Source: Paraspadella gotoi (lineage: Eukaryota > Animalia > Chaetognatha). From it: DNA of 64,000 nt. The stretch covers positions 22,010,278 to 22,074,277 of the forward strand of contig CM119265.1 of NCBI GenBank assembly GCA_051294375.1. The letters run 5' to 3'. The notes beneath the pieces are model-generated. The model was not told the DNA's origin. It worked only from the letters and a program-made list of their open reading frames with translations, and searched no databases. Made by a program: the position numbers and the translations under genes. How positions within the stretch are numbered: position 1 is the first letter of the stretch; each line of letters starts with the position of its first letter. Shown here piece by piece: positions 39,477-62,643 of this stretch.

Positions 39477-41935
39477 ATGAATATCGATTTGGAAAAGGGC
39501 GGACCCTGCCCTGCCCCTGGGCAGGAAAACACCAAAATGGTTTCTGGAGTCTACTTCCTTTGCACCATACCTTGCTTGACTTTCAGTGTTGCATTTTCTC
39601 GCCTTTTAAATAGTATTATTTTTAAGGAGGAAAGCTTTCAGTTGCTTTCCACTGTTTATTGTTTACCTTTTTGTTGTTTTATTTATTAGGTGCCGTTATA
39701 TTGTGCTATGACTCGGGACAGTGGTTGGTTATGTTCGTAGTTAAGTTCTCCCATTCTCATTTGCGAAAACTAAAAAAAGTTTCGTCTTTGCTCCAAAATG
39801 GAATTGTTATCAGAAAGTTTAGCGATAAAACGAGCCCCGAGAGATTGTTCATTCCATTGAGCAGCAACAACATCCAGGATCTCATGAAAAGCGACCCAGG
39901 TTCTTTGGTCGCTTCTATAAATTGAACCAAGAACGTTTTTCTAAGCTTTCGTTGTTTTGTAGCGATACTGAAACTCTTACCTCACGAAGAGTTGGATCCT
40001 ATTATCTCTCATATTTCGGTAACCGTGAAGCAAACTTATTTGGAAATTTCTTGCAAACTTCATTCTGAATTAATTGCTATAAACAGCACGAAAGGTGATT
40101 CTTCTGCCTAGTTTGTTTAACTTATGATTTTATTTTCAAATCTCAGTTGAATTGACTTATATACTTAAAGAAAAATTTCTTCTGGTTACAGCGTCTCGTT
40201 TGGGAGTGGTTAGGCCGTACGATATTCATGAAAAAGTTGATTCTTTTATGACCAATTTTCGATTTTTGATGAAACGCGGAAAGTTTTCTGAAGTTTCCAG
40301 CTGGGATAAGTGGGTGATCGCTTATTGTTTAATTTTTTCCTATTTCATAATAGATTCTCTTTCCTGATATATTATATTTATATATTATTTAATTTATGTT
40401 AGATACAAGCTTCTTTACAAGAAGGACGAAGTGACTCCAGTTAAGCAAAGTCTATTGGTTTCTTTTATGGTACATTCATTGCTGGAATATATTCAACCTG
40501 AATTGCGGTTGGATGTCAGGTTTTTAAAAACACAATATCTGAGTGATGATAATCCTACTGACGTTTTCTTTCCAATACATTAGGGCGGATAGATTTCATA
40601 GAATCTGTTTTTGGACCAGAGGAAGGGACACGGTCAAGGTTTCCCGTCTTTACAACAATATTGTGGACGCTTTCAAAGCTAAAGTTGATCTTAAAGTTGA
40701 TCAGAACCGCGTTACTTCGCATAAAGAAGTAGTTTTGCTTCTGTATCAGAAGGTATCTCTAGAATTTATCGTAACTAAAATCCGAGGAAACAGATTAAAG
40801 GTTAAAGGTTAATTTTATTTTCGCCGACCGGGTTAGGGGTAATTAAGGTTAAGAGAGTTTAGGGTTAAGGTAATAAGGTAATAATTTTTTTATTAAGTAT
40901 TTTTAAATAATTTTGTAAAATACGCCAAAACCCTGGTCGGCGAAAGTAAAATTTAGCCCAGATTTAATAACATCGTCTATTCGATAGAAAAATGTTGCGT
41001 TTTCCTTGAGAGCTTACAAAGACGTTCCTTTTAATGGATTGGACGAATTAATTACCGGCGTACGCGTGAAGTTAAAGGGTGTCGATTTTTTTTGGCTCAG
41101 GTAAATGGATTTGTGATAGTTTTGTCAAGCGTAACAGCTTTTGACAACATTAGCTTTCTAATTATAGTTCGGCACTCTTTTGGGGTTGTTTCACGTTACT
41201 ACTTCAGCGGGCGCTGCATGTAGGTCTTTTTAAGCATCTGAACGTGACCTGGGAAACGACGGCCATATTTGCCGCAATCATCACGGTGGTGAGGTATAGT
41301 TTCACACTGATCCGAAGTCACTCAAAGAACTGACGTTTTTCGTGATTATTCGGAAGCGGCTACGCGAGGTTGATTTCGAAAAGAAACGAGTACTATAGAC
41401 GATTGGCCGAGGAAAATCACTTGAGGTTGATCGCCAGCGACGAGGCTTTGCTCAACTACCTCATTCACATCGCCGAAGAAGAAACCATTAAGGAGGTTGA
41501 ACCCTCAAAAAAAATTCTTTCCCAATGTCTTCGAACTTCGTCGCAAATCAAGTTTCCGTTTCCAGGCCTTGCTCACCGTTGTGGGAATTCTGCACCGAAA
41601 CGAGAAGCAACAAAGCGGATTGACGGTGTTTGGGGTGGAAGCAAACGCGTCAGGTTTCTTTGGCATGACCCTTTTCTCTAGCAGAATCGGTTCTTACCCT
41701 TCTCCTTTTCCAAACTCGGTTCCCGTTTCCGATAGCTTGGCTTCAGCGAAATACTGGCCGAGATCTCTTTTTCTACACGTCTCCCGAGACAATGGAGGTT
41801 TTGGAACGTACCGGTCTCGTCTCGCGATCCAAGCATTTTTTGAATTACAATCAGAACACCCGAGTTTTCACGTCAAAGGCCTTGTTTCCGGTGGTGATAG
41901 AAGAACCCGTCGATTTGCGACGAACCGATTCGTAA
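39477..41935 (+). CDS. TMEM143-like (DUF3754) membrane protein, multi-exon
   Basis: ERLFIPLS, LRAYKDVPFNGLDELITGVRVK, two hydrophobic helices, ..IASDEALLNYLIHIAEEETIKEALL and AWLQRNTG..LERTGLV. The motif order matches TMEM143 as I recall it. Confidence 0.65.
40807..40959. mobile_element. Small intronic MITE enclosing telomere-like repeats
   Basis: TIRs aattttattttcgccgaccgggtt and aaccctggtcggcgaaagtaaaatt flank a ggttaggggtaattaaggttaag...agggttaagg tract. Confidence 0.7.
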
Positions 41936-42034
41936 TTTTCTTTAATGATGTCTTAAGTCTCGCTTGACTGTTTCTCCGGTGCGTTTCGATCCTCTTTAGG
42001 CTAATTTGCAATTCGAATAAATTAACGGACAAAA

Positions 42035-44221
42035 ATGACTGCTCGCACGGAAGTCGTCTTCATCTCCACCCTGCTCCTTTTTTTCCTCATCCCCTTCTCG
42101 TCGGAGGCCATCGGGTCCGACTCGGACTTTTGCCAAGACTGCGAGGAGGTCGTCAACTACGCCAAAATTCTCCTCGGCAGTCCAGAGGCAAAAGAAAAAA
42201 TCAAAGAATTGTTGCACGAGTTATGCGAAAAGACAGGACCCGCGAAGACCGCTTGCGACGCCATGGTCGACGAGAACCTCGACGCCATTGTCGAAAAGAT
42301 TAGCCATCTCGACACGAAGACAGTCTGCGTCGAACTCAGGCTATGCGAGGGTACGACGTCGAAGACCAAACTCGGCCTCGCCTCCATTCGTTCCGCGGGT
42401 TGCGACGTCTGTTCGTCTTTCGTCTTTGAGTCTTTGAAGAAACTTCGGTCGCCCAATTGGTCGAGCATTCTGCCCCCGCGGATTTGCGACGCGATCGGCC
42501 GCCCCGATCTCTCTTGTCATCACGACGTGCTCATCTTCCTATCCGGCGTTCGAGTCGCCGGTAGCGAATCCTATTTTTGCTCATCGTTTTGCGATCAAGT
42601 GCCTCGGTCTTCCTGCTTTTTCGTTCAAGCAAACGATGAACCTTTGCATAAACCGACTTCCTCTTGCGGAATATGTACGGAGCGGATAGAGGGCCTCCGA
42701 CGAGACGCTTTAGCGAAGATTCATTGTGGTATGGCGTGGGCGACTAGTGCCTGCAACACGGTTCCTTTCGTGGTTGAAAACTGCACCAAAGCGGCCGTGA
42801 AAATTTTCGACTCCTTGGCCAATCACCTGCGTTATTTCAGAACGAAGACTTTGTGTGCTGAGGTGAGAAAAGAAAGTCGACCACAATATGGATCAATTTT
42901 TACCCAAAACTCCTTTCTTCAGATTGGAAAATGCACTGACCGTGCTACGCAAGGGAAAGGCACCGCTCTTTGCGACTTCTGCGAAAAGTCCGTAAACTAC
43001 GCCAAGATCATCATCGGCTTCCCAGATTCGGAGAAAAAAGTGGAAAAGGTTCTCCTCGACGTTTGCCACATGCTTGGAATTATGGAAGAAGGTGCGACAA
43101 TCGTTGGTACCTCGTACTTATCCCATAACCTTACTAATTCTTTCTCCCCTTTTGTATGAAGAGTGCTCTAGGTACGTAAAGAACAACATACAATCAATTC
43201 TTGATGAGTTAAAGCACGTGGACACTCTCGCCTTTTGCCACAAGCTTGGCGTTTGCTCGAATCAAACCGCGACGACGAAAAAGAAGAAATCACAACAAAT
43301 CGAAATCATTTCCAGAAATCAAATTAAAACGATTTCAAAATACGCTACTTCTAACGGGAAGATTAAGTTAAGCAGCGAGGTAAATTCGTGATCTTCTTCC
43401 AGTGCGTCTGCGATGCTTTAACTTTCATCTTCCATGCCTTCCCAGTCTTCTTCCGCGCGGACGCCGTCCTTACATCGCGAGAACAAAGAGGATCCGCGCT
43501 TGTTGCGCGTGGGTAAGGAGACCGATTTTCTACATCTTCCTCGACTCACATGCTTTACCTGTCGATTCGTTATGAGCGAAGCCAAAAATATGTTGGCCCA
43601 AGACTCCACGGTTGATCTCTTGGCCGACCTTGCCCTTGATATTTGCGACGAGTTCGACGAAGACTTAAAGGTAAGTGTCGATGCTATTTGTGTGATAACT
43701 GACTGTTGTATCAGGCTAAACTGTATTTACCACAGGCGCAATGCAGGGACTTTCTAACGCTTTACGCTAAAACGTACATAAAATTAGCCATTGAACAATT
43801 AGATCCGGAGCAGATATGCGTCTTAATCAAAGCTTGCAACGCATCAGGTGTGTTTTGAAATGGTATTTTAATTATCAGGTTTTGACAAAATTTTAACGAT
43901 AGCTTCAATTCTCCAGCGACCGTCTCAGTTCCGACTTTTCGCCAAAATTCCCTCGTCTGTTTTGGTTGCCAACGCTCTCTCCGGAGAATCGTGAATTTTT
44001 GGCGCGTGGACGACGGACTTCGAGCTAAGGTGCTAAACATCCTGCAATCCGCTTGCCTACGTCTTCCCGAGGACGCACTTATCCAGGGTTGCGTGAACGA
44101 GGTCAACGTTATGTTCCCCGATTTCTCGAAACTTGTTAAATCAATGGATGAAGGTCGGACCTGCCTTAGAGCCGGCGCCTGCGCTTCTGTTAAGCAGATT
44201 CATCTGAATGGCTGGACATGA
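42035..44221 (+). CDS. Prosaposin-like secreted protein with six saposin-B-type domains
   Basis: Signal peptide and six CxxC-initiated Cys-patterned repeats (CQDC, CDVC, CGIC, CDFC, CFTC, CFGC), mostly ending in C..L..C. Confidence 0.85.
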
Positions 44222-44442
44222 TTCCATGTCCTCAACTCCGAAAAATCCGATTTTGCTTAGTCTACTCATTTAGAATCGCTAAAATCTTCTTTATACTGCT
44301 GATTGTTGTTTTTTTAATCCGTGGTCATGACTTTTTTTGGCATCCAATAATGAAACTAATTTTTATTAAGAATCAATTTTTATGTTTTTATTTTCCAGTT
44401 AATTAAAAAGCATCTTCCCTGTTCGTTCAAGGTATTAACGCA

Positions 44443-45443
44443 ATGGCGTCGGGTAGGTTGATGCCCCCACCAATTCCTCTTTCACAAAAGCGACAGGCGA
44501 ATGAGGTGTATAGACAGCGAAATGGCACCCGCCTCCCGGCAAGTCCACCCCCTGTTGCGCCAAAGAGGCCCACAACGCTTAATCGCAATGAAGAGCAATC
44601 CTTCCCGCCTCCACGTCCAAATTTTTCAGTAAAACCTGATCAGTCGTCCACATCGCGGGCTTTGAAAGGTCCGCTTCCTAAAAATGCGCAAGGTAAGTTG
44701 TACATACAAAACCAAACCTTTCGATCCCTATTATCGTCCTCAGAACCTGAGTCGAAAGAGAACCTGCGAGTCGTTACGACATCGATCGAATCTTGCTTGA
44801 GTTGGCACCGAAAGTTAGATTATCACCCGGCCTACCTTCTGTTCAAGGTTGGTTCAGTCGAACGTTTTTAAAATTATTTATTTCAAACCCACAAATATCT
44901 ACAGACTTACGGATCTCTGATGTCACATCCGGAGCTGCCCGGTCGTTGTCCGAGTAAGAATATATTTTGCCATCACTGCTCATCCTTTTCCTATTAGAAG
45001 GGGAAAAAACACTACGTAGCAACGTACGTATTTTTTTGTTTATTTAAAATAGATAAAACTCAATTCGTCATGTTCGTCCTTCTTGACGAACGAAGCCGGA
45101 CCAAGTTGTGGTGCTACTTTGTGGAGAGCGAAAGACGATTGCCCGACGTAAGTCAATGATGGCGATCGCCTTGCGATCACTTATGAGTCTTATCATGTAC
45201 GATTCCTTTTTCAGCTTCGACCAGGAGAAACATACTCAGTTGTTGGTCGATTTTTAGAAGAAAAATCTATCGGCGATTTTCAAGTAAACATTATCATTGA
45301 CGTTGGGTTTGTTTTTAATAATAAAAATTTTACTTTTCCTTGAATAGGTTTTCACTGTGTATACTGCGAAGGCAGACAATGGAATACGACGCAATCTCTT
45401 TAATTACAACGACCAAAAGCTTAAAAAATATTTGTGTTCATGA
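44443..45443 (+). CDS. SPATA22-like meiotic OB-fold protein, multi-exon
   Basis: Pro-rich N-terminus, then ENLRVVTTSIESCLSW...LLFKTYGSL...KLWCYFVESERRLPDLRPGETYSVVG, which parallels the SPATA22 pattern LRIISAVIES..W...LLFEV...CVFYEIDRELPRLIRG...VG. Confidence 0.65.
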
Positions 45444-45613
45444 CTGTTTATTTATTGAAAGTTGTATTTATTGATGGACAATTAACTATATTTTCAGTGA
45501 TCTTACATTTTATTTCTTTTTTTTTCTTTTTCCGTAGTATTTATTTACTTAATAAGGGACAAGTCTTGCTCCTAAGGAATGTTTTCTTTTGAGATTGACT
45601 CTTAAAGTTAACC

Positions 45614-48428
45614 ATGGAACTTCCAAAATACTCAGAAAAAATTATCGATGCCATTCCTTATTTCAAAGCTGAAGCTATTCAAGGTGATCGACAAAGATTT
45701 TATAAAGAGCTAATCTTAAAGTAAATCAAAGTACCATTGAAAGCTATTTCAGAATGCAGGTTTGAGGAAAATTTGCGTGAGGTGTGAACTTTTTATTTTA
45801 TGGCATTTGCAGTTTTATGGCCCTTCCTCGAGCCTGTGGTCACCAGCGAGAAAGTTCTTTCTTTCTGCAATCAATGGTGGGATTTTTATCGAGAACTCAA
45901 CGACGCTCTCCGAAAATGCGAGCCGATTCAAATCGTCCTGTTTACTTTACTCGCACTGTACACGTTTAGGTAAAACATACCTTTATTGCGTTGCAAAAAT
46001 ACTAGCATTCTTTGGTCGATTTACTTACAAAATAGTGATATTCTAGTTATTTGTGGCGTTTTCTACATCGTGACGAACCGCTTTGGAAGCGAACCAAGAA
46101 CTTTTTTTTCCGGTTCGTTCGAGGACTGCCGGTGATTAGCTCCATCATTAAGCGACAGATAGACAAGGAAACGGAAAAGTGGGAAGAAGAGATGCAAGCC
46201 GTTTCAGACATTCCTTACTATCAAGAACTACCTTCCGTCGGACTCGGCAGGAAGGGGGTCGAGGAAAAGGTGGGAACTTTTTGACGAACGTATTCGAGAT
46301 GTGGAAAGTTTTTATGGACTTAAATTTGTCAGGTTCGAGAGTACGAATCGATGTGCAAGGTCGATTGGCGGACTGGTCAAGTCTCCGGCGCAGTCTATGG
46401 AGCTGTCAACGAAGGTACTGGCTTTGTTAATGACGGTGCTTGTGTTGTGAAGCAAACCAGCGGAAGCTTTAAATTTAATTCATAAAATCTGACTCTATTT
46501 TTTCAGATCTCTGCAAAGTTGCCGGAGAAGTGTATTGTCATCACATGTGGGCCAATCCTTTGCATCCGGATCTTTTCCCCAATATTAGAAAAATGGAAGC
46601 CGAGGTAGATCTACGAGATCAAATGATGATCCACAAAAATAATTGTTCAATTAAAATCTCAACAACTTCCAGGTGGTTAGAATGACCCTTTCTCTTTACC
46701 ACGGAGACAATGAATCCTGCGGCACAATGAGCACAGGCGGAACCGAGTCAATCATGTTGATGGTCTATGCTTATCGGAACTACGCCAAGGCGGAGTTGGG
46801 GATCGATCGCCCCGAAATGTGAGATAATATAAGTATCCTTTAGATTTCATCAAGTTCATAAATAGCTTCCGTAAGCACTTTTTCATTTGTCTCCTCCATA
46901 AAGTGTTGCTCCCCGCACCATCCACGCCGCTTTCGACAAGGCTTGTCACTGCTTCGGTGTTAAGCTCGTCCACGTTCCCGAGGACCCCGTGACACGGCGC
47001 GTCGACGTCAAAAAGATGAAGCGTCGTATCAACTCGAACACGATCCTTCTCGTCGGATCCGCTCCTCAGTTTGCTCACGGTGAGTTAAGAAACGCGAAAA
47101 CTTCAAGTCGTCGAACGAAGACTGGTAATCTTGTGAACTCTAGGTTCCGTGGACCCGATCGCGGAGATCTCTGCCCTCGGCCTTCGCTACGGGATCTCCG
47201 TCCATGTAGACGCTTGCCTTGGTGGATTCTTCATTCCCTTTATGGAGGAGGCCGGTTTTCCCCTTCCTCTTTTCGACTTTCGACTCAAGGGAGTCACGAG
47301 CATTTCTGGTTAGTTGCCTGTCGTTATCTTTAGCTTTGATCGCCTTTTACTTGGGTTGTCGGTTTAAAAACTTTTTATATTGTTTTAGCGGACACCCACA
47401 AGTACGGATACGCCCCGAAAGGATCGTCAGTTATCATGTATCGTTCGAAAGCGATTCGACATTATCAGGTGTTCATATACATTTTTTTGCTTCTTTTATC
47501 TCAAAATTACCTTGCGCTTCTGCATCGCTAGTTTTTCGTGAGCGTCGACTGGCCTGGTGGAATTTACGCCACGCCTACCTTTGGCGGCAGCCGGGCCGGC
47601 GCCGTCATCGCTTCTTGCTGGGCTTCGCTTATGTATATGGGTATGGCCTGCATTTTAGCTTGATGCGCTTATAATAATTCTTAAATTTCATTTCTTTTCA
47701 GGACACGACGGCTATTTAAATTCTACAAAGATGATCATTAAATGTAGAAACAAAATGGTTGAGGTGAAGACAAAAATCGTAGTAACGGAGTAATTTAAGA
47801 TTTTTGAAAAAATCTCTTTCTTTGTAGGGTTTGAAGAAAATCAAAGGACTCAAGATCGAAGGAGTTCCAGAGGTGTCGATTATCGCCATCGCCTCAGACG
47901 ATTTCAATGTTTTTCGCCTCTCGACTGCTATGTACGTATTCATTGCTATTTTGGGCAAATTTTTAGTTGCGCCGCGAATACTCGCGAAGCAATATAAGTC
48001 ATTTGTCTGTCGGTATGTCTTGTAGTCAGCGTTTAAGCCGATCATTAAAACCCGATTTTATTTTCTCAGGGTCGAAAAGGGATGGAGTCTGAATCCCCTG
48101 CAATTTCCGCCCGCGATCCACATTTGCCTCACTTTGATGCACACTCAGGAAGGCGTCGCGGAACGGTTTTTGAAGGATGTGAGGTTAGTCGTTGATGCGG
48201 CATAAGACCGAAGTTCATCAGTTTTTTTACCAAATAAACGAGATCTTTTTTTTTATCTATTTTAGAGATTGTACCGAGGTGATCATGCAGGATCCAAAAA
48301 AGCCCGTCGGCGGGGTTGGCGCCATTTATGGCTTAGCAGCGACCATCCCAGACCGAAGCTTGGTTTCGGAACTTGTTACCATTTTTATGGACACGACCTA
48401 TTCAACCAAAAATAAAGTGGGTTCCTGA
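45614..48428 (+). CDS. SGPL1: Sphingosine-1-phosphate lyase, multi-exon
   Basis: [65 protein letters not shown] lysine [30 protein letters not shown] and [15 protein letters not shown]. Confidence 0.96.
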
Positions 48429-48661
48429 TTATTGATAGCGTTATCAAAAACTTAGGAAAGAGTGAGGAAAAAACGTGACTGGGTTTATTCATCCCTTACA
48501 GATCAAAACGGTATTGACTAATAACTATGAAAGTTTAAATAATTCAATACTTTGATTTTTTGGTTTTAAATTTTTTTTCTTTTAAGTTTGGTTAATTTAT
48601 TGTTATGATTATTTTATTCGTGTCGTTATTTTTTTTTGTTTAAAAGCTAGTTTGAAGCGCC

Positions 48662-50806
48662 ATGACGGACGAGAACATCAATGACTTGGATTCCGCAATA
48701 GACTCGGCGGGGACTGCTTGTCCTCCTAACCCTGCACAAACTGCTCAACTTCTAGTCACCAACAATTTTTCAAGTTGCGAACTCGACAAAGAAGACGAAA
48801 CAACATCTCATGACTTACCATCGTTATCTGATTCGAATGTTTTTTTAAAGAATCTATCGTCCGAAGTTGCAGATGACAATTCGGTCATCGAAGTCAACTC
48901 CGTCCATTGCCCGACCTCTGGCGACGACTCTACCCCGGACACCTGCGCCACCGCCGAGGACTGTTCCGTTAATTCGCCCACAAATCTTCCAAGGAAACGG
49001 AGACATTCTGATTTAGACGCCGAATCACTGAAAGAGTGTCTGCCAGAACCGAAAAAACTCTCTGTGGAGAATTTCTCTGATTTAACATCCGTTAGCCCCT
49101 CAACTGATTCTCCTCCTTTAACGTCCGCCGTCTCGACCCCCGTCGTAACTCCACCCATCTCTTCGCCACCCGTCAATATCTTTGCCACTTCACTCTTTTC
49201 AAAATCAGAAACGAAAGCAAATCAATCGGAATCATTCGATCAATCGAATGGTTCCTCCGCTACGTACAAAGCTTTGACGTCATCGGCCCAAACTAATTCT
49301 GATTCGACGAGAACGAAACACGCCAACAAATCCACGCCTAATGGGGCAGCTTCCTGTTGGCTTCCCTTCTGCAGCGCCAAATGCGAAGTCGCGCATCACC
49401 CCATGCTTCAATCCCTGTCTCGTTGTCTCCGCTCGTTGGAAGAATTTCGGGAAGAGGAAGAGCGGGAGGCGGTGATGCAAACGTTTGGATCGGCCGTCGA
49501 AACCCACGAGAAAGAGATTGGGGGCTGGACGAGGACGGATACTGTGGTTGACGTCATGAAAGAGTATTACTATCCTCTCTTACACTCGGCCGCTGTGAGT
49601 GGAAATGTAGGGTTGGTCCGGTGGATGATGCATAACGGATTCGGTGCCTTCACTCGTCCCGTTTGTTTGCCGCTTATGCAATGCATGTTGAACCTCGACT
49701 GTACTGTCAGAAAAGGCAACGATCGAATTCGCATTTTTAAAGAGATGATGGAACTTTTATCGAGCGACGTGGCCGAACCGACGTTCGACAGCGCCGAGCG
49801 GCCGACTTCGCTTCTCATTGCGGCCTGCTCCCGCACCGCCGCTGACGCTGGCGACCGTCCATTTTTCGTCGCTGCCGTGCGTAACATCGTTTCCCATCTC
49901 ACCGACAAGTTCGACTCGGACGCTCAGAGGAAGATCCTCCAGGTTCGCAACGCAGAAGGGAATACTTGCGTCCACGAATTCGCCCGATTTGACGACTCCA
50001 TCCCGACGCTTAAACGACTTTTGGATCTCTGCGTCCGTCTCGGTATCGCCGACGCCGTTTTTAAGTCGCCCAATATTCACGGAAAGACGCCGGTCGACGT
50101 CGCTGCCGACGCCGGAGCTCTTCGACTGGTCACCTTTCTTTCTCCGCTCATGCCGTCGGCTGCCTCGAAAGCCACGATGCCATTCTCGGGTGAAAAAAGG
50201 GAAACTGTGACTTCGAAGACTACTACCGGCGCCGTAATTTCCGCAACAACCAATGAACCCTTGTTATCGGAGCAAGACGTCGCTCCAACGTCTGCAGAGG
50301 ATAATGAAGAGAAGAAAAGTTGTGACAACACGATCCTCCTCCCCGTCATCGAGGAAGGAGACACTCCGTCCCCATCCGCGTCGACCCAGGAGACAGAAGC
50401 AGAGATAATGTTTCGCCCACTTTTTGCCGGTCAGATGAAAGCGGAAGCCAAGTTGAAGATTCTCGAGAAGCATCTCGCGGAGAAGCGGAAGCTGCTTGTC
50501 GACGTCAAGTCACGAGTCGAGAAACACGAAAAGAGCGGGGAGGAGATTAAAGCTAAGATCGAAGAAACAACGTCGGATACCAACTCAAAGATCGAGAACA
50601 TGAAAGTGCTGTTTGAGGTATTGCTGCGGACTCAACGGGACATTAGCGCCAACGATGATAAAGTTAAAACCCTCAACCGTCAACTCGCCGCCGAAATGAA
50701 AACCGTCGTCATGCATGAGAAGGTGTCCCAAGAGTTGACTGACGTTCTCGAAATTATGGAACAATTACGCGGGACGCTTATGAATCAAACTTTTCTGAAT
50801 ATGTGA
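48662..50806 (+). CDS. Intronless ankyrin-repeat and coiled-coil protein
   Basis: 714 aa: Ser/Thr-rich N-terminus with RKRR, ankyrin-like PLLHSAAVSGNVGLVRWM, RNAEGNTCVHEFA and NIHGKTPVDVA, then a C-terminal heptad-rich helix. Confidence 0.75.
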   Translation: MTDENINDLDSAIDSAGTACPPNPAQTAQLLVTNNFSSCELDKEDETTSHDLPSLSDSNVFLKNLSSEVADDNSVIEVNSVHCPTSGDDSTPDTCATAEDCSVNSPTNLPRKRRHSDLDAESLKECLPEPKKLSVENFSDLTSVSPSTDSPPLTSAVSTPVVTPPISSPPVNIFATSLFSKSETKANQSESFDQSNGSSATYKALTSSAQTNSDSTRTKHANKSTPNGAASCWLPFCSAKCEVAHHPMLQSLSRCLRSLEEFREEEEREAVMQTFGSAVETHEKEIGGWTRTDTVVDVMKEYYYPLLHSAAVSGNVGLVRWMMHNGFGAFTRPVCLPLMQCMLNLDCTVRKGNDRIRIFKEMMELLSSDVAEPTFDSAERPTSLLIAACSRTAADAGDRPFFVAAVRNIVSHLTDKFDSDAQRKILQVRNAEGNTCVHEFARFDDSIPTLKRLLDLCVRLGIADAVFKSPNIHGKTPVDVAADAGALRLVTFLSPLMPSAASKATMPFSGEKRETVTSKTTTGAVISATTNEPLLSEQDVAPTSAEDNEEKKSCDNTILLPVIEEGDTPSPSASTQETEAEIMFRPLFAGQMKAEAKLKILEKHLAEKRKLLVDVKSRVEKHEKSGEEIKAKIEETTSDTNSKIENMKVLFEVLLRTQRDISANDDKVKTLNRQLAAEMKTVVMHEKVSQELTDVLEIMEQLRGTLMNQTFLNM

Positions 50807-51319: not shown

Positions 51320-51346
51320 GTCGCCTATGGTTACAATGGCGGGAAA
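51320..51346 (+). promoter_or_regulatory. Candidate promoter elements (RFX X-box-like next to an E2F-like site)
   Basis: GTCGCCTATGGTTAC followed by GGCGGGAAA, in the longest gap of gene run B. Confidence 0.3.
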
Positions 51347-51780
51347 TATTACATTCAGTAATTTTATTTGCTTCTTACACCTATTTTCATTAAAAAGATT
51401 TAAACGAAAACCTATTACTTCTTTTGGTATGCAATGTTTTTATTATATATTTTTGCACAAATTCAACATATAACGATAACTTTCTTCTAATTTCCGTTTG
51501 TTATTCGATATTCGTTGCAAGTGGCATTATTGACATATTCTTAAATCAATCAAAGAGATTACCATAATTTGCGTTTAACTCACCTCGCAAATATTAAATT
51601 TCTTTTTTGAATCATTCCTGGCCCTATCTCGGTATTTCAAAAACAATGGCGTTTACTGCTAGTTTCTTTTTACATAAATATTTTTCTGTGATTTCCTTTG
51701 TTAAAAATTCCCATGTATACAAGGTTGTTACAAATACTCCAAAAAGAAACTCTCGTTGTTGCATATCACGACGTTCGACA

Positions 51781-53470
51781 ATGAACGCGACGCGGTTTTC
51801 TACCGAGAAGGAACGGAAAGAGTTCCTCTCCGATTTGCAGACCATCCGAAAACGCGCTAAGGAATTGAAACTCAAAGATAAAGAGGTCGACGACCTTTAC
51901 TTTTATTCCGATTGGATCGGCGCCGCTTCTCCGACGAGGCTTCAAATTAGGACAATGTTGAAGGTGATTTATTCCAGGTCTGATGGAATCGGATAACTGA
52001 TTCCTGATAACTCGCAATCTTTTTAACAGGCTTTGTGGAAGTGTCTTGACCTAGTCATGGTATGCCTTTGCGCCTATATCTTTATCGCTCAGACTCCATA
52101 TTTCGATAAGTATGTTAACAAATACCTCCCACATTCCGGATTTCCCGCTTTGCGATTTGCCAGGTACAAAGCTTAAAAGCTAAGCCTGACTTTTTAGTCT
52201 GCGAATTCAGTTTGCTTTTCTTTTTTGCAAAAGAAAATTCGCCGTTTCGACGGGATTGACGGATTGGCTGATTTCCCGGGACGCCTACCACATGAACTGC
52301 CTCGTCGAAAATCTGTTGTTTGAACCCCCGGAAGTTTCGTGCCATCGGTGCCTTATCAAGGACGTCGAGGAAATTCAACTGGACAGTCTGAACGCCCAAG
52401 TTGATTTCAGAAATATGGTAATCCCCTCGCATATCTGTAATGTAATGTATAATTGTATATGCCAAATTGCCCATTTCGTATTCGGCCTCGACCCAGTCCG
52501 CATTCGTCCTCCGCTCGTCGCGTCCTGTCAACCTTTCTATAGTGGACGTCCAACGAGTTTATCAACCGCACGCGACCGAAGCTCGCGACCATACAAAGAC
52601 CTTCGTCACGAACACTGACCTCATCGGAAATCTATCCAACTTTCTCGAATCCGATTGGATCGAGGAAGTTTTGACAACTGGAAATGAAACGCTCCAGCCC
52701 TTTTTAGTGAGTCTGTCAAAGTGGGCACATTCGTAGCCGAATAAATCAAAGCGTGACAAACTTTTCCCCCCCCCTATCTTTTCAAAGGCAATTTTTTGGG
52801 CGCATGTTGTTTCATGTATGTTGATGATCCCGATGTTGATTTCTCTCCTTAGGTTTGGCGCGTTAGTCATTATAACGTGTCGCGACACTTCCGCTCTATT
52901 TTCCCTCGCGCCCCCTTTGTGCCTATGGAGTCAGAAGTGCGTCTCGAGAAGATGATGTTTGCTTACAACGCTCAACACCGCAGCTTCAGGATTCGGTCGG
53001 GGGTGTTCGAGAAATCGTGGTTGTATCAGGTCGTTTATCAGTGTCTCTCAAAAATCCCGAAATATTTTTTAGTCCCGCCCAATATGCTATATAATATTTG
53101 ACAGGCTCGCGGTTCTCGTTGCTTCAAGCTGTACCCTCCGTACCACTGCCATGGGGACTTAAATTCCACCGATCAAGGTCCAAAGGACACCAACAAAAAA
53201 AGTGACTCAGACCTGGGCGCCAGCGAATCGGAGACGGAAAACCTGGGAGATTTTATCGACGTGGCCCCCGAAGAAAAGAGGGGTGGTCAGAACCCGAGTC
53301 CCGAGGAAAGCTCCGAGCCGGTTTGCCAGGAACAACTCGTGCGCCTCGACGACGGCGACTTTCTGTACATTCACGGCGAAATTTGGTTCGCGGTTTCCGT
53401 TTTTTGCGAGGACGAGGCCAAACCTGCTCCCGGAGAATATGGCATCACTTACGTTGGGGTTTTTAAGTGA
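51781..53470 (+). CDS. C6orf89 (BRAP)-like type II membrane protein with a cupin-like C-terminus, multi-exon
   Basis: N-terminal TM helix, NCLVENLLFEPPEVSCHRC, RAPFVPMESE, WLYQARGSRCFKLYPPYHC and CQEQLVRLDDGDFLYIHGEIW. Confidence 0.5.
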
Positions 53471-53780: not shown

Positions 53781-55236
53781 ATGAACCAGCATAGTTTTCC
53801 ATTTTCTCCCTCGCAAGGCCGCATCCAGCACCCCTCGCCCTCAAACTGGACTCCTCGCCCCGTTTGCGTCCCCAACGTTCCAGCAGCCACTCAGGTTGCT
53901 ACGCCGGTCGCCAGCCTCATGCCTAATCCGTCACCGATCTCATCGCGCAAAGTCGATGACGCGCTTCCTTACCCGGACGCTATGACGCCCTCGACTCGGT
54001 TGACCACGTACAGGTCCATTAGTCTTTTGAGAGGAAAAAAAATTAGAGAGTCTAATTTTTTTTTTTTTTTTTTTTTTTCAGGCCTTTTTTTCCTTCATCA
54101 ATCTTGCATCCGTCAATGCTTCAAGATTCTTCAACTTTTCACCGAATAGCGCAAACCACTTTCTCTCCGCTTTCGACCTCCCCCTTTTTATTTTCTGGTT
54201 AGTGGTACGATGATTTTAAACTATTTTGCTTCTTTTAAGAATGAAACTAAGAATATAAAAATATTGTCACGTTAAGTAAAGTATTATTTTCAATTTTAAA
54301 GCGAGAAACGAAGCAACTTCCGGAAGAAAACGAAAATCTGTTGAAAATGGCGGTGGATCAGCGAAGAAAAGTTGCGTGGAGGAAAAAATGGTACTTTTGG
54401 TGCAATAAAAAGTTTGGCTTAGCTGTCCTCTTCAGATATTTTAATCAATGAATAGGCGAGACATATGTCTCGACTCAGTCTCAGTCAAGGATCAACACAA
54501 AACGATTTGGAAGACGACGTTGAAGGTGAAGATGAAGAATTCTCGTCGGAACCCGTGGAAATGCGTTTAGCGCCCGAATTACAGGTTCGTCATGTTGCGT
54601 ATGGCTATTTTAATGAAAGTGAAAAAGTCCATAAGTATGAGTCCATGAATCGCAGATAAACGGAGGTAGACGATCCCGGAGGAAGAAGGTATAACTATAA
54701 ACGTCATCGTAGCCATTACAAAGTTTAATAAATGTTTTATAAAATCTTAGGAGGTAGTGGAGAGATTTAAAAGAACAGTTTTTAAACATCATTCATCATG
54801 AATTCGTTAACATTTTAAAGGTCGCCTTGAATCGTTCTGAAATTTTACCAAACGAGCTACTTGCCAAACTTCCCGGCCCTTCAAAATCTGGTGAGGCGGG
54901 TTGGTTTTTAAATAAAAAGAAAATATAGGCTTTACAAAACTGTTAATAAATTTTTATCTCAATATAGGAATGGAACTAGTTTTATGGCGTCCCCCTGGAA
55001 ACGTTGTTCCCAAAGAGATCATGGTTTCGCTCCATGAAAACGACGTAACCAAAGACGATTCGTCGGTCGTTTATGTCGCCGCCACCAAAGAAGCGACGAA
55101 GGATCAACCGTCGATTGGAGATGCTCCTCCTCTTTCGCAACCGTCTTCTCGAATATCCAGACTCCCTCCCTTTAGAACTAGCAACGGAGCCAACAACAAC
55201 AATAACAATCTCAACGATTTAGAGATGGAGATCTAG
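53781..55236 (+). CDS. CCDC117/HCFC1R1-like protein, multi-exon
   Basis: RKRK...EEKMARHMSRLSL, an acidic stretch, and the signature MELVLWRPPG. Confidence 0.55.
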
Positions 55237-55410: not shown

Positions 55411-58400
55411 ATGATTTTGGATCTAAAATCCGCGTTTGTCCGAATTTGCGATTTATTTAACAGCGACGAAGAGCACAAAAACTGGTAACGTCGAAACTGA
55501 GTGAATATTACAAGTCGCTCGATGCTATAAATGAAATTTTTTAATGCAGGCTTATTTACGTCGAAGAAGAAAGAAGCCGCATCATCATCGAACGTGTTAG
55601 CGGCGTGGGAGAATGCGTCGAGTATGACGTGAAAGAAGAGCCAATCTTTGATACGCCTCTCTCCGATTCTCGGGTATTAATGCGATCGAGACTACATAAT
55701 TACTTTTTACTAGTTTTATGTAGCCGACTCGCGTTGTAGGAACTTACGGCTTACGACGATGGAAATTGGTTGCCCGAGTCGGAAATATGCGACGCGACCG
55801 AGGGAGACAACGACGAAGTCACCGCTTTCATAACCCAATGCCTTCATCCCTCGGAGAATGTCGCTGCGGGAGATTTAATTAGGGACTCTGGTAGGTGTCA
55901 TTTTTTAACTGAAACCAGCAATGTGGTCTCCGCCATACTTAAAGTACTTCTCTTTTCTAGACGATATTTCGCTATTATCATCTAAACCAACGACACGAAG
56001 CAGCACAAACAAAGATGCGGTATATTTTCTTTTTTTGGGCCTGGTGTCCGACGTTTGCCTTGAGAATAAAAATGTGTATTTTTTTAAATTTAGAAATTCA
56101 AATTGCGCGAAGGGAAGTACGTGTGCTTAAGTTGCGGGATCTCATTTCCGAGATCGAAGTTGGCGCGAAAGCACGTCTTCGAAGGCAATTGCGACAAACC
56201 CCGAGACTGTACAGTTTGCTCCCAATCTTTTCCTAATACGGCATCTATGCTGGAACATATGAAGCTGCAACATTCCAGTCATGACGGGAGAGATATTGAG
56301 TAAGCATTGAACGTTCAAATTTTTTTTTTGTCAAACTACTACTAATTATTTTTTAACGTTTACTAGATTGCCTGGAAACTCGGAGAACATTCCGATGGAT
56401 TCGATCGGTATTCAGGAAATGGAAAGTGACGATTCGGACGAAGCGGAAGAATCATTTCAAAATCCTGGTACAGTTCTTGAAGTGAATAATCATAAATAAC
56501 TAATAAATATATTCTTAACTGCTTCAGAATATTTACGATTGGTTAATAACCAATGGTTATCTATGTTTTTTTAGAAAACGATGACTCGAAAGCTGCATCG
56601 AAAGAGGTTTGCCTATTTTGCGGTACGTTCTCTGAACTCATTTCTCCTAAATAATTACTTTATTATTATTATTCGGTTTATTATTTAATTTTTCGATTAT
56701 TAGGAAAAACGTTATCATGTTCGCGGGCTCTCAAACGTCACGTTGACAGTAAGCATTTGGGCCAGGGAAAGATGTTTGCTTGCCCCGTTTGCGGTAAAGA
56801 TTACAAGTGCAAAACAAAAATGAGAGATCATTTGCAGAGGGAACACCCGGAAAGTTCTCAAGCCAACAAAGCATACTCTTGTCCAATTTGGTGAGGTTAC
56901 TTAATGCCTTCTGTAGGTTAGCATGAATTCGATTTAAATAATTTTCGTTTTACAGTGGTAAAGAATTCAAAGCAAGCCTGAAGATGAAAGAACATTTGAA
57001 TCGGATTCACGCCAATGCTTCGAAGACATGCAGTATTTGTAACAAGGTATTGTCGGCTCTCTTTCTACTTCATTCTCTCATATCTATTACCGTTTTTATA
57101 TAACAGTTTTGTCCTCCTCTCAGACTTTCAAGCAAATATATTCGCTCGAGTATCATATGGATATCGTTCACTCCGACGCTCCCAATCCCTTCGCAGACGG
57201 TGCAGCATTGGCCCAATTTTATTACGCGCTTCATTAAATACTCTACTAATACTTTAATCCTTTGGTACTTATATTGATTTTTTTGCCATGTTTACATCAG
57301 GCGAGAGTCACTTGTGCGACTACTGCGGGGCGAGCTTTTCCACGAAGGGAAGTTTAAATCAACATCGTTACACGCGACACGTTGAAGCTGATAAGCATAA
57401 GGAAAGGAAAAGGAAAAAAAAAGTTGAGGCGGCGGAACAACGGAAACTCGGTAAGGGCAGTCTGATCTTTCTTAAAATTGTAACTATGGGTGTTTCACTC
57501 TATTTACATAGACCATCTCCACTTCTCCATTTTTTTAAAAATTTTATTAGGTCAAGTCAAAAAAACCAATAAACCAAAGGAGAAACGGGAATTCGTGTGC
57601 GGAATTTGCGGGAAGGTTTTCACCAGTCACAACTGTATGTTAAAGCAACACATCGCCATCGTTCACGAGGGCAAGCGATTTCCTTGTGAGTGAAAATTTT
57701 AAAATTCGAACTTAACTCAGGGGATGGATCGTGTCAACGTTTTTAATCGTTCTTTGTGACTCAGGTGAAATTTGTGGAGCGGAATTCACAACTCCGGACA
57801 AAAAACGAGTCCACATCGGTAACATCCATAGGGGCATCAAGCACAAATGCGAATATTGTGGAAAAGATTTTACACTAAAAGATTCTCTGAAGACTCACAT
57901 CAACGCCGTTCACAAAAAAATCAAGCATCGATGTGAAATCTGTTCTCAAGGTAGAAATTTGTTGCATGGCATCATAATTAACTCAGTTTTTAAATTTTGT
58001 ATTTTTGTTCAGAGTTTTCGATCATTCAAGATTTGCGGCAGCACATAAAAGCTGTTCATCAGGGAATCAAATCTAAGTGCGAATATTGCGGGAAGGTGAG
58101 AGAAAATTTAATTAGGGCTTTTTTTAGGATCAAATATATGAAAAATTGCAAGATTACTTGTTTTACTATATTAGACTTTAAAATTTTATATTAAAATTTT
58201 AAAAATAAATATAAAAATTCAATAAATTTCACTCTATATTTTATTTATTTATATTTATATTTTTTTCAAACCAAATTTATTTTTATCTTAGGATTTTAAC
58301 CGACCTCAGGAAATGAAGAGGCATCAAAGAAAAGTTCATCAGGTAAGTTGTTTTTTTTAGAGAGAGAGAGAGAGTGAAAGTCTAAGTCTACATATCATCT

Positions 58401-58570
58401 AATTTTGTCTGACGATTTTGATAATTTAAATCGTCACTAAATTTTTTTAGGATCAAATGATAATGAACGTTGTTGGACCTAAGATAGAGATTCCCATCGC
58501 TACGCAGCATGTGATATTAACGGCCTCTGCTGATGGCCAAACTATAACTCAAACTATCACTTCCCTGTAA
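55411..58570 (+). CDS. Multi-C2H2 zinc-finger protein, many small exons
   Basis: About a dozen CxxC-x12-HxxxxH fingers (e.g. CEYCGKDFTLKDSLKTHINAVH, CGICGKVFTSHNCMLKQHIAIVH). Start codon uncertain. Confidence 0.85.
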
Positions 58571-58943: not shown

Positions 58944-59324
58944 ATGCCTTCTTACAACCCCAACGGCGGCATTAATAAGCGGAAACTCTCTCAAAGGTTT
59001 CAGTGGCAGCGGTTACAACTTGTAGCTCGATCGCCTTTCCTTTCACAAATTATTTTTTTAAACAGGCAACCCTGTCCAACACCCAAATCGAAACTCCGTG
59101 TAACACTGAACAGTGACGCTTTGAAACAAGTTCTTCCCTACCTCGCGAACCTGCGGCGCCGAATCGAGCGGCGCTACGCGAAATCCACGATGCTCGTCAC
59201 GGCGGAATTGGCGACGGCCCTTCGTCAGACGCGAAGGCGTTTAGTCCTGCATCACCAGCGCTTTCTCTATGACGCTACGGAGAGAATCGCGCGCTTTGCA
59301 GTCGCCGATGATCGAATTAAGTGA
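58944..59324 (+). CDS. Small basic orphan protein (probable intron 58997-59065)
   Basis: ATG after an acceptor site, GC-rich exon-like composition and an Arg-rich helical product. No family recognised. Confidence 0.5.
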   Translation: MPSYNPNGGINKRKLSQRFQWQRLQLVARSPFLSQIIFLNRQPCPTPKSKLRVTLNSDALKQVLPYLANLRRRIERRYAKSTMLVTAELATALRQTRRRLVLHHQRFLYDATERIARFAVADDRIK

Positions 59325-59937: not shown

Positions 59938-62643
59938 ATGTCAGACTTCCACGCGGAATTAGACTCTTTCGAGATCCAGGTTCCCGGCGGCGGAAAAATC
60001 CCGTTTCGTGACGACGACGCCGTCCTGTCCCAAATGCAATCGCACTACGGAAATTGGCGGGAGAGGGGAAAGGTTACCTCGATCCCGCTGGCCAGGATTC
60101 CGCGATTGTTTTTCGGCGACGAATCGATGCCCGACTACTTTCGCCAGAGGTTTCAAGCTCTTCAAAAAGGTGAAGAGGGTGAGATCAAAATCTTCAAAGA
60201 ATTGTTGGGCTTGGCCAATCTGGGTGGCTCGGGAATTCTCGTTTACCCCAACGTCGACGGCAACGGGTTCCGGCACCTCGACGCACAAGTCGAGATCGAC
60301 TTCGTCGTCCTCGTCGCGGACAAGGGGGCGTTCTTAGTCAATGTGAAAAAAGCGCGCGTAGTTGACGAGAAAAAAATTGCCGACGACATGCGGCGTCACT
60401 CGCGCTTCGTCCATCTGGTGGCGACTTACCGTGAATCGGCCGAGGTTCCGATTTACGGTGTCGTGTGCACGCTGGAAAATAGGATGAACGCGAAAAAAAT
60501 CGAGGATAGATCGGGAGAGGGGATTAGAGGGTGTCATGTTTTTCAACCGACAGATTTCGAAGACTTCCCCCACAAGTGGGCGGAAATGGCTTCGAAATTG
60601 CCGGATATCGCCGCGGACGGCGAACAAGAAAAGGCCGTGGACACACTCGCCTCCAGACTCTTCGTCCTCAACATCATGGACGGATCTTTGGCGCAGATTC
60701 ACGAGCGAATCGCGACAGACGACTTCCAGCGGCAGAGGAAGGCACCTAAAGTGTTCAAAGAGTTTACCGAAGAAATGGTAAAGGAGGCCTTGAAGGACGA
60801 TTCCGCGGACGAGGCTCGAACGGAGGAGATGACGAAAGACTTAAAAGATTTGAATATCGGAGAAGTCGGTGCAACAAAAGTTAATAAAAAGAAGAGCATA
60901 ATGTTGTGGTCAAAGCAGCAGTTAGGGATAATCACAAAAATAATGAAGGTTCTTCGCCAGGGGGGCAACCAAGGTTGCCGTCTGGTTATCAAAGGTCCAA
61001 AAGGTTCTGGTAAAACTATGATTTTGACATATATCGCTCGATGGGCCGCGCAGTTGTTCGAGGCGGATAAGCCAAATCAGGTGGTGGTGGCCGACGGGAG
61101 ACAAGGGTCTTCAATTATTTTTTTGGAAAAGTTAAAAAAAACATTTGAGAATACAAAGGTGGGCGTTGTCGACGATGAAAACCAAAAAGGCATGATAAAA
61201 CACTGTCGACTTTTGATGTATGACGAATGCATTGTCCCTAACTTTGAAATTTTGATTGAGCCGAAGAGACAAACTCACTTAATTCTTTTCACGTCCAGGA
61301 ATGATTTTCCTTCAGAAGGTTTGGAGGTTTTCACGCTACAAGAAACTCTTCGCGCGACAGTCGAGATTACGCGCTTCGTCGAGAAGTTCAGGAAGATTCC
61401 GCCATTTTTTCACGAAGTTCCGCTGAACCCTGGACACAATCTTGTATCTTCAGCTCCGACTGTTGATATAGTTTATACTGATTGTGACTCCGATGCAAAG
61501 CACGATGTTTTTGTCGACAAGGCTGTGAATGCCACGTTGGAATTAATAAAAGCAGGGCGGGGATTGAAAGAAATTTTGCTGGCTCCTTACACACACTCGT
61601 TTACCTTAAAGAAGATACTAGATCGTTTGGATGAAGAGCGTGTGGATTATGAGTTTAGAAATCCGACAGAAAAATTAAGTAAATTTAAAAACTTCAAGGA
61701 TGAAAAAGCTGAGAACTTACTCGTTATAGTGTGCACTGGAAATCACGTTGATGGCGCTGAATTTGGTGCTGTTTTGATACTTATTGATTCAACTTTGCCT
61801 TTGTGGTGGGAACAGTTTCTTCATGGTAGTGTCTTTATATCTATGACCCGATCAACCACCTTGTTACGGATAATTTACAATTACGCAGTTAAAGCGCCGC
61901 AAATCAATTATTTCGGTGAAAAAACAGTGAAACATGGAATGTCTTTTTTGGAGGTGTTTCAAACAAAAGAAATAAAAAGGGATGAATTTGAGTCGGTCTT
62001 AGTTGATATAGTGTTTGGTGTTCAATCGAAAGTGGGGCCAGTTTTAATTATTGGCGATATGATATCAAAATCTTTAACCCCCGCTGATCCTCCTAACTTG
62101 TATAAATCGAATATTTTATTCGATTGGTGGTCACTTCCTCGGACTTCCAAGTTAATTGTTTCTTTCAAGAACTTTGATCATAAAGCTCATATTGGAAGTT
62201 TACTTATAACTTCGCTTCAATCTCTTAATAGTTTATCGGCTGTGATTATCTCTACTTTCACCGATACAGCTTTTGAAGTTTGTATGAAAACTATGAATCG
62301 TCACAGCTTATTGTATTCGTTCATTGAAAACCAAATTAATCAAGTTCCTTGCTGCTGGTTATATTCTAAAGATGAGTTTGAAAACTACTTTTATGTAAAA
62401 AGCTCATTAGAATTGTGTTTTGATAGCATGAAAAATTTTTTTTTAACTTATGGTGAAAATAGTAAATCTAAAACTATTAGACTAGATCACGATGAAAAGA
62501 AACAGTCTGAAACATGGCTTGGTCTCAAAAAAAGTGGGAATATATTATTTGACGAAAATTCCTTCAGAGATGCTATTGAAAAGTACAAGAAAAGTTTGAA
62601 ACTAATCAAAATCCAGTACGCTGAACGTATCTTCGGTAATTAG
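59938..62643 (+). CDS. NERD-like nuclease + superfamily-1 helicase + TPR-like protein (may continue by splicing after 62635)
   Basis: GEEGE...EIDFVVL...GAFLVNVK (NERD pattern), WSKQQ, Walker A GPKGSGKT (60994-61017), Walker B LLMYDE, LQETLRATVEI, DGAEFGAV, SMTRS, and a terminal LKKSGNILF..SFRDAIEKYKKSL TPR-like helix pair. Confidence 0.75.
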   Translation: MSDFHAELDSFEIQVPGGGKIPFRDDDAVLSQMQSHYGNWRERGKVTSIPLARIPRLFFGDESMPDYFRQRFQALQKGEEGEIKIFKELLGLANLGGSGILVYPNVDGNGFRHLDAQVEIDFVVLVADKGAFLVNVKKARVVDEKKIADDMRRHSRFVHLVATYRESAEVPIYGVVCTLENRMNAKKIEDRSGEGIRGCHVFQPTDFEDFPHKWAEMASKLPDIAADGEQEKAVDTLASRLFVLNIMDGSLAQIHERIATDDFQRQRKAPKVFKEFTEEMVKEALKDDSADEARTEEMTKDLKDLNIGEVGATKVNKKKSIMLWSKQQLGIITKIMKVLRQGGNQGCRLVIKGPKGSGKTMILTYIARWAAQLFEADKPNQVVVADGRQGSSIIFLEKLKKTFENTKVGVVDDENQKGMIKHCRLLMYDECIVPNFEILIEPKRQTHLILFTSRNDFPSEGLEVFTLQETLRATVEITRFVEKFRKIPPFFHEVPLNPGHNLVSSAPTVDIVYTDCDSDAKHDVFVDKAVNATLELIKAGRGLKEILLAPYTHSFTLKKILDRLDEERVDYEFRNPTEKLSKFKNFKDEKAENLLVIVCTGNHVDGAEFGAVLILIDSTLPLWWEQFLHGSVFISMTRSTTLLRIIYNYAVKAPQINYFGEKTVKHGMSFLEVFQTKEIKRDEFESVLVDIVFGVQSKVGPVLIIGDMISKSLTPADPPNLYKSNILFDWWSLPRTSKLIVSFKNFDHKAHIGSLLITSLQSLNSLSAVIISTFTDTAFEVCMKTMNRHSLLYSFIENQINQVPCCWLYSKDEFENYFYVKSSLELCFDSMKNFFLTYGENSKSKTIRLDHDEKKQSETWLGLKKSGNILFDENSFRDAIEKYKKSLKLIKIQYAERIFGN

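What the first reader, a model, noticed from the sequence alone, without database searches (positions are those of the whole stretch)
39477..62643. Ten unrelated genes in one orientation with tiny gaps and orphan splice acceptors: candidate operons resolved by SL trans-splicing
Seen: ten consecutive plus-strand genes with stop-to-ATG gaps of about 99, 221, 170, 233, 974, 310, 174, 373 and 613 nt. Most downstream ATGs follow a U-rich tract and a pyrimidine-AG acceptor with no obvious upstream donor (41999, 44398, 45607, 48646/48650, 53748, 58913, 59920). At TMEM143-like to prosaposin the acceptor lies only 64 nt after the stop, leaving almost no room for a 3' UTR plus a promoter. Known: this is the layout of trans-spliced operons in nematodes, tunicates and some flatworms. 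Inference: this animal transcribes polycistronic units, which would be new if its lineage is not known to have operons.
Basis: partly seen in the sequence, partly recalled or inferred. Interest (0 to 1): 0.85.

Follow-up and report, generated by a model that had tools for sequence, protein, structure and literature searches.

The report
Likely arrow-worm operon of housekeeping genes
Ten unrelated genes sit head to tail with gaps of 99 to 974 bases in what is likely an arrow worm, and spliced RNA assemblies run across several gaps, so at least the first five genes likely form an operon cut apart by spliced-leader trans-splicing, a mechanism already described across arrow worms.

Summary
The layout is real: ten intact plus-strand genes with exactly the nine gaps reported. 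The first gene likely starts at 39731, not 39477, and three of the listed acceptors are weak. Acceptor-like AGs are enriched just before the ATGs (p=0.003). One public RNA assembly (X1) removes the introns but runs unspliced across 3 of the 5 gaps tested. Its prosaposin contig begins exactly one base after AG 41999, as a trans-splice branch would make it. No leader sequence was seen, the last four gaps have no RNA test, and the run also holds unspliced material. Earlier scan notes on this genome call it an arrow worm; I could test that only indirectly. Arrow worms are known to trans-splice about half their genes and to keep 18% in operons of up to nine genes (PMC2481426, PMC12460157). The scan already reported such an operon elsewhere in this genome (e1-10588163). 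Verdict: likely an ordinary chaetognath operon, probably two units split at the 974-base gap. Low interest.

The parts
39731..41935 (+).
   Evidence: Intact model; introns 1-3 reproduce X1 depth bins exactly; contig 1 ends at the modelled donor 40752. No Pfam hit on 4 of 4 exons scanned; no homologue found for one exon
41998..41999 (+). Candidate trans-splice acceptor, 64 nt after the gene 1 stop and 36 nt before the prosaposin ATG
   Evidence: X1 contig 3 begins at 42000 with no extra letters; no GT at intron distance upstream in the gap
42035..44221 (+). Gene 2, prosaposin-like, 618 aa, 5 introns
   Evidence: SapB_1 and SapB_2; 5 of 5 introns seen as RNA joints
44397..44398 (+). Candidate acceptor (90th percentile), 45 nt before ATG
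   Evidence: RNA contig 3 runs across it unspliced
44443..45443 (+). Gene 3, SPATA22-like (name recalled, not confirmed by a tool), 212 aa, 5 introns
   Evidence: Intact model; 5 of 5 introns seen as RNA joints; no Pfam or PDB hit on single exons
45536..45607 (+). Candidate acceptors for SGPL1: 45537 (strong, but followed by a short upstream ORF at 45579) or 45607 (weak AAG, no upstream ATG)
45614..48428 (+). Gene 4, sphingosine-1-phosphate lyase (SGPL1; name recalled), 582 aa, 13 introns
   Evidence: Model aligns at 68-77% identity with 5 unnamed full-length PLP-decarboxylase-domain relatives; the first 5 introns are displayed as joints; depth bins match the model
48645..48650 (+). Candidate acceptors 48646 (AAG, 66th percentile) and 48650 (TAG, 5th)
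   Evidence: contig 4 runs across them unspliced
48662..50806 (+). Gene 5, intronless ankyrin-like and coiled-coil protein, 714 aa
   Evidence: Weak Ank_2 hit, E=2e-4, below the curated cutoff; covered by contig 4
50807..51780 (+). 974-nt gap; possible internal promoter (AATAAA at 50830, CCAAT at 51033, highest local GC of the nine gaps); candidate acceptors 51186 and 51723
   Evidence: bridged unspliced by contig 4, with a 21-nt insertion and 3 substitutions
51781..53470 (+). Gene 6, C6orf89-like (name recalled), 420 aa, 5 introns
   Evidence: Intact model; contig 4's remaining 1300 nt fit the spliced model plus 57 nt of 3' UTR (inferred); no Pfam hit
53781..55236 (+). Gene 7, CCDC117-like, 312 aa, 6 introns; acceptor 53748 (61st percentile)
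   Evidence: Weak CCDC117 hit, E=0.005; model; no RNA test
55411..58570 (+). Gene 8, C2H2 zinc-finger protein, about 613 aa, 15 introns; acceptor 55301 or 55390
   Evidence: zf-C2H2 hits; model; no RNA test
58944..59324 (+). Gene 9, small unnamed protein, 103 aa with one modelled intron (126 aa unspliced); acceptor 58900 (or 58913)
   Evidence: no Pfam hit; no RNA test
59938..62643 (+). Gene 10, intronless NERD-nuclease and helicase-like protein, 901 aa; acceptor 59920 (81st percentile)
   Evidence: Weak NTPase hits; Atlas leads at 0.88-0.89 to NERD and Schlafen-helicase clusters; no RNA test

Best explanation
These genes likely belong to an arrow-worm (chaetognath) operon: genes 1-5 (39731-50806), and probably a second block of genes 6-9, are likely transcribed as polycistronic RNA and would be cut into single mRNAs by spliced-leader trans-splicing at the AG just before each ATG. 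Shown here: the head-to-tail layout, the gap sizes, acceptor enrichment, intron removal, and RNA contigs that run unspliced across the gaps after genes 2, 4 and 5. Inferred: a promoter in the 2.2-kb divergent region upstream of gene 1; 3' cleavage of each upstream gene within the short U-rich gap; addition of a capped leader (published chaetognath leaders are 33-36 nt and end in TTAAA) at the downstream AG; and a likely second promoter in the 974-nt gap.
For: Gaps of 99, 221, 170 and 233 nt between genes 1-5 are all under the 250-bp cut-off used for Paraspadella operons. Of the 5 gaps covered, 3 are crossed by a single contig that has its introns removed (contig 3, piece 43914-44666; contig 4, piece 48264-51800). 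A fourth is spanned by contigs 3 and 4 abutting, with a computed overlap of 29 nt against 30 expected. This excludes a cis-spliced 5' UTR intron in the main assembled path of the three singly crossed gaps. Contig 3 begins exactly at 42000, the base after AG 41999. Logan contigs are non-branching paths of a k=31 graph, and contigs 1 and 2 end exactly where that logic predicts at a known intron. A start at 42000 therefore likely marks a second upstream sequence that does not end in G, and all 26 published chaetognath leader variants end in A. Acceptor enrichment p=0.003, with no strong donor upstream of the listed AGs. Phylum: several earlier scan notes call this genome arrow worm (AI notes). 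My calls are compatible: the nearest dyskerin relatives are unnamed JGI/Logan proteins at 87-88% that form a separate clade (100/99), while named vertebrates and a priapulid reach only 75-78%; coding CpG o/e is 1.32, in line with the absent gene-body methylation reported for Paraspadella.
Against: No leader sequence was seen: none among the 6 loose ends displayed of 22, none in the window, none in the first 150 nt of 57 of 57 metagenome dyskerin loci, none of which is a close relative. Contigs show no break at 44398 or 48646/48650. The same run holds unspliced material: contig 2 keeps a 235-nt intron at depth 27, and contig 1 runs unspliced for at least 531 nt upstream of gene 1 and has 3520 further letters beyond the laid stretch, enough to reach across the divergent minus-strand gene. 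Bridging may therefore come from precursor RNA, overlapping UTRs or DNA, and the tool warns that a contig across two genes shows no single transcript. One run of one study only. Gaps 6-9 have no RNA test. The arrow-worm assignment was not tested against a named chaetognath sequence.
Confidence: 0.75

Rival explanations
1. Tightly packed monocistronic genes, each with its own short promoter, trans-spliced or not; the RNA bridges are precursor, read-through or DNA.
For: Unspliced contigs exist in X1 (contigs 1 and 2). CCAAT-like words occur in 5 of 9 gaps. SL addition also occurs on monocistronic genes in chaetognaths and tunicates. No leader was seen.
Against: 64 nt between stop and acceptor, or 99-233 nt between coding regions, leaves little room for a 3' UTR plus a promoter. 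20 of 21 genes share a strand, which compaction alone does not require. The contig start falls on the acceptor base.
Confidence: 0.15
2. All ten genes form one 23-kb operon, longer than the nine-gene maximum reported for Paraspadella.
For: Contig 4 crosses the 974-nt gap unspliced into gene 6. Every ATG has an acceptor-like AG nearby.
Against: The 974- and 613-nt gaps exceed the 250-bp criterion. The 974-nt gap has a poly(A) signal right after gene 5 and the most promoter-like composition. Gene 10 looks like a lineage-specific intronless insert. The last four gaps are untested.
Confidence: 0.12
3. The animal is not an arrow worm but a lineage with no reported operons, so the operons would be new.
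For: No named chaetognath protein was among the best 120 dyskerin hits, so I have no direct match.
Against: Several earlier notes on other pieces of this genome reach arrow worm from different genes (ribosomal proteins, ATP6, lamins, enolase). The dyskerin tree sets it apart from the vertebrate rows and the metagenome loci.
Confidence: 0.05

Closest known systems
Chaetognath SL-resolved operons: Spadella cephaloptera RPS14-PCNA (PMC2481426) and Paraspadella gotoi, 1,470 validated operons with 3,565 genes (PMC12460157)
   Same: Same-strand unrelated housekeeping genes, gaps under 250 bp, acceptor close behind the upstream gene's end; likely the same phylum
   Different: Leader addition is shown there and only inferred here; this block mixes lysosomal, lipid and regulatory genes rather than the ribosomal and proteasome genes of the longest published operon; two gaps exceed 250 bp
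Tunicate operons (Ciona intestinalis, Oikopleura dioica; passages of PMC7986045)
   Same: Leaders not specialised for downstream genes; operons picked out by short distance
   Different: Median intercistronic distances there are 1 and about 31-33 bp between gene annotations; here stop-to-acceptor distances are 64-340 nt with UTRs not mapped; introns here are all GT..AG and a U11 snRNA is present
Caenorhabditis elegans SL2 operons (passages of PMC7986045)
   Same: About 100-bp gaps resolved by trans-splicing; U-rich gaps (the Ur element is recalled)
   Different: Nematodes use an operon-specific SL2; none was found in Paraspadella; not testable here
Earlier scan finding e1-10588163 (nine-gene translation operon, same genome)
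   Same: Same layout and same kind of RNA-contig evidence
   Different: Different piece of the genome and different genes

Membership tests
Chaetognath SL-resolved operon (P. gotoi definition) | Two or more same-strand genes under 250 bp apart | tested here: met
   Genes 1-5 (99, 221, 170, 233 nt) and genes 7-8 (174 nt) meet it even stop-to-ATG; 310 and 373 would likely meet it once UTRs are counted; 974 and 613 do not
Chaetognath SL-resolved operon (P. gotoi definition) | At least one gene carries a spliced leader in RNA reads | tested here: inconclusive
   No leader letters among 6 of 22 loose ends displayed; contig start at 42000 fits a leader branch; Logan reports only contigs over 150 bp after graph simplification, so short leader junctions would likely be lost
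Chaetognath SL-resolved operon (P. gotoi definition) | Organism is a chaetognath | tested here: inconclusive
   No named chaetognath among the hits; own clade with unnamed relatives; the assignment rests on earlier scan notes
Eukaryotic operon, general | Polycistronic precursor spanning adjacent genes | tested here: inconclusive
   Spliced contigs cross 3 of 5 gaps laid, but short-read contigs do not show single molecules and unspliced material is present
Eukaryotic operon, general | No promoter or capped start in the gaps | not testable with these tools
   Needs CAGE or chromatin data; contigs cannot show starts
Eukaryotic operon, general | Unpaired acceptor before downstream ATGs, no cis 5' UTR intron | tested here: met
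   Acceptor enrichment p=0.003 and weak donors; three gaps unspliced in RNA
SL trans-splicing system | SL RNA gene (leader, GT donor, Sm site) in the genome | not testable with these tools
   No whole genome is held; none in this window
Nematode SL2-type operon | Operon-specific leader on downstream genes | not testable with these tools
   No leader reads available

The most novel reading that the evidence does not exclude
The genome is not an arrow worm's but that of a bilaterian lineage with no reported operons, and it carries SL-resolved operons of five to ten genes: a new independent origin of animal operons. A milder version (about 0.12, interest about 0.35) is a single ten-gene, 23-kb operon exceeding the nine-gene chaetognath record.
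Probability: 0.05. Interest if true: 0.7.

Novelty: new member of a known kind. Interest (0 to 1): 0.2.

Why it matters
If the best reading holds, it adds one more operon to a phylum in which 18% of genes are already known to be operonic. It has small value for comparing operon content between arrow-worm species and for the idea that operons gather broadly expressed and germline genes (gene 3 resembles the meiotic gene SPATA22, a recalled match). It would matter much more only if the animal were not a chaetognath.

Tried and rejected
No whole genome is held, so no SL RNA search or genome-wide gap statistics could be run. The stretch 51.8-62.6 kb has no RNA overlay, so gaps 6-9 stay open. Leader-bearing transcripts of relatives were sought twice in metagenome contigs: the SGPL1 alignment gave 0 relatives among 434 candidate stretches; dyskerin gave 57 loci, all at or under 79% identity, with no chaetognath-type leader. 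Chaetognath leader motifs were not found in the window, and Rfam found only a tRNA and U11. Cluster look-up gave no names for the two closest dyskerins. The P. gotoi operon list (Supplementary Table 1, xlsx) was too large to read, and the three readable supplements hold no SGPL1 or prosaposin entry, so shared gene order could not be checked; that table may bear on the claim. A TMEM143-like exon found no homologue, and an Atlas search for gene 6 was not available. Earlier findings near this place or like this sequence: none. Rejected: ATG 39477 as the start of gene 1; CCAAT words as promoter evidence (present in 5 of 9 gaps); the loose ends at 40811-40958 and 47960-47992 as leaders (they sit at repeats inside introns); a 2.7-unit depth excess in the bin holding the gene 5 acceptor as leader evidence (source not displayed).

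Full report
Observation. I rebuilt all ten genes from the sequence. Each reads without an internal stop, and 59 of 59 modelled introns are GT..AG with median length 71 nt. Gene 1 likely starts at 39731: RNA reads 39200-39897 unspliced, and the frame from 39477 closes after 70 codons. Tool support for names is firm for prosaposin (SapB) and the zinc-finger gene, weak for the ankyrin, CCDC117 and NTPase genes, and indirect for SGPL1 (68-77% identity to five unnamed full-length PF00282 proteins). TMEM143, SPATA22 and C6orf89 are recalled resemblances. Of 21 protein genes that I identified in the window, 20 are on the plus strand (p about 2e-5 if independent). One minus-strand ORF at 36699-37421 separates this run from another run of ten.

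Acceptors. I scored AGs with a matrix built from the 59 modelled introns. The best AG in the 80 nt before the ten ATGs has median 6.1 bits, against 3.8 in 139 non-coding windows of my choosing (p=0.003); nine other genes of the window give p=0.008. Of the eight AGs listed, four rank above the median of real cis acceptors (44398, 59920, 48646, 53748) and four below (41999, 58913, 48650, 45607). Stronger alternatives lie at 45537 and 58900, though 45537 is followed by a short upstream ORF. No listed AG has a donor above the 27th percentile at intron distance within its gap.

RNA. One run, X1, holds 0.72 of the sampled words. Laid on 39200-51800 it gives 35 joints; the 15 displayed are all GT..AG and match my introns. 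Depth bins predicted from the models match the observed values within 1.5 in 10 of 12 bins checked; the other two are off by 4.6 and 2.7. Contig 3 covers prosaposin and gene 3 with introns removed and the 221-nt gap intact. Contig 4 covers SGPL1, gene 5 and the start of gene 6 with the 233- and 974-nt gaps intact; its remaining length fits spliced gene 6 plus 57 nt. Contigs 3 and 4 abut with a computed 29-nt overlap, 30 expected. Contig 3 begins at 42000, the first base after AG 41999, with no extra letters. Logan contigs are non-branching paths of a simplified k=31 graph, and only those over 150 bp are reported (10.1101/2024.07.30.605881, passages). Contigs 1 and 2 end exactly where this logic predicts around the 235-nt intron. 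A start at 42000 therefore likely means a second upstream sequence ending in a base other than G, which is what a leader ending in A would give. This is an inference from one site.

Against. No leader letters were seen: 6 of 22 loose ends were displayed, all at repeats. Contigs do not break at 44398 or 48646/48650. The run holds unspliced material: contig 2 keeps an intron at depth 27, and contig 1 runs unspliced upstream of gene 1 and has 3520 letters beyond the laid stretch. Bridging is therefore not proof of single polycistronic molecules. The second half of the finding has no RNA overlay. Two scans for leader-bearing transcripts of relatives gave none.

Organism. Earlier scan notes on other pieces of this genome call it an arrow worm from ribosomal proteins, ATP6, lamins and enolase fusions; these are unchecked AI notes and they changed my reading. 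My own checks are compatible but not diagnostic. The best 120 dyskerin hits hold no named chaetognath; the two closest are unnamed at 87-88%, and named vertebrates and Priapulus reach 75-78%. In a 36-row tree the window's dyskerin groups with those two (100/99), apart from the vertebrate rows and the metagenome loci (I used 19 stored proteins and 16 of the 57 loci). A C4 zinc-finger nuclear receptor is present (its NR5 type is recalled). Coding CpG o/e is 1.32.

What is known. PMC2481426 (passages and section 12 read) reports 33-36 nt leaders in Spadella and Flaccisagitta and an RPS14-PCNA operon with three bases between poly(A) site and acceptor. PMC12460157 (passages and section 10 read) reports trans-splicing of 10,197 of 21,072 genes in Paraspadella gotoi, 18% of genes in operons defined as under 250 bp apart, a longest operon of nine genes, and no operon-specific leader. 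Its operon table could not be read. PMC7986045 (passages) gives nematode and tunicate distances. The Flaccisagitta enflata preprint (part 1 of 2 read) did not address operons in that part. I make no claim that this locus is absent from print.

Mechanism. Likely, transcription starts in the divergent region upstream of gene 1 and runs through genes 1-5. Each upstream mRNA would be cleaved and polyadenylated in the short U-rich gap, and a capped leader would be joined at the next AG. The 974-nt gap has AATAAA 24 nt after the gene 5 stop, a CCAAT word and the highest local GC of the gaps, so a second promoter there is plausible, giving a second unit of genes 6-9. Gene 10, 613 nt further on, may stand alone. 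Layout, splicing and gap coverage are shown; leader addition, promoters and unit boundaries are inferred.

Verdict. A real and likely trans-spliced operon block, but a new member of a kind already described across arrow worms and already reported once by this scan in the same genome (e1-10588163). Interest 0.2.

Noticed in passing
window 1793-36075 (+): A second run of ten plus-strand genes (dyskerin, GST, beta-galactosidase, TECR, TAF3-like, RRM protein, myosin regulatory light chain, nuclear receptor, sulfotransferase, GGT; the light-chain, TAF3 and NR5 names are recalled). The first seven have gaps of 330, 1133, 204, 932, 235 and 217 nt, and several have strong AGs before the ATG: likely further operons.
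   Followed up: partly
window 1793-3334, 5564-7459, 7664-8560: Dyskerin, beta-galactosidase and TECR are intronless here, beside genes with up to 15 short introns; that these genes are intron-rich in most animals is recalled.
   Followed up: no
window 26842-26972 (-) and 22358-22430 (-): A U11 snRNA and a tRNA, both antisense inside the span of the nuclear receptor gene.
   Followed up: no
window 36699-37421 (-): The only minus-strand coding-like ORF not explained by a plus-strand gene; no Pfam hit. It faces away from gene 1 across 2.2 kb and bounds the run.
   Followed up: partly
window 40811-40953: A 22-nt inverted-repeat element (91% complementary) inside the 235-nt intron of gene 1; many other X1 contigs match it, so likely a small transposon.
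   Followed up: partly
window 59938-62643 (+): Intronless 901-aa NERD-nuclease and helicase-like gene; Atlas leads include mollusc clusters and Schlafen-like helicases, all under 0.9. Possibly an innate-immunity gene.
   Followed up: partly
L008, L011, L013, L014, L017, L019, L020, L022, L023, L024, L027, L029, L030 (5' ends): 13 of 37 short dyskerin loci from metagenome contigs share a 5' motif that resembles the copepod spliced leader (recalled). These are other animals, not relatives of this window.
   Followed up: no
window 51691-51740: X1 differs from the window by a 21-nt insertion and two substitutions just before ATG 51781, which suggests this stretch is non-coding and the upstream ATG at 51646 is not the start.
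   Followed up: partly
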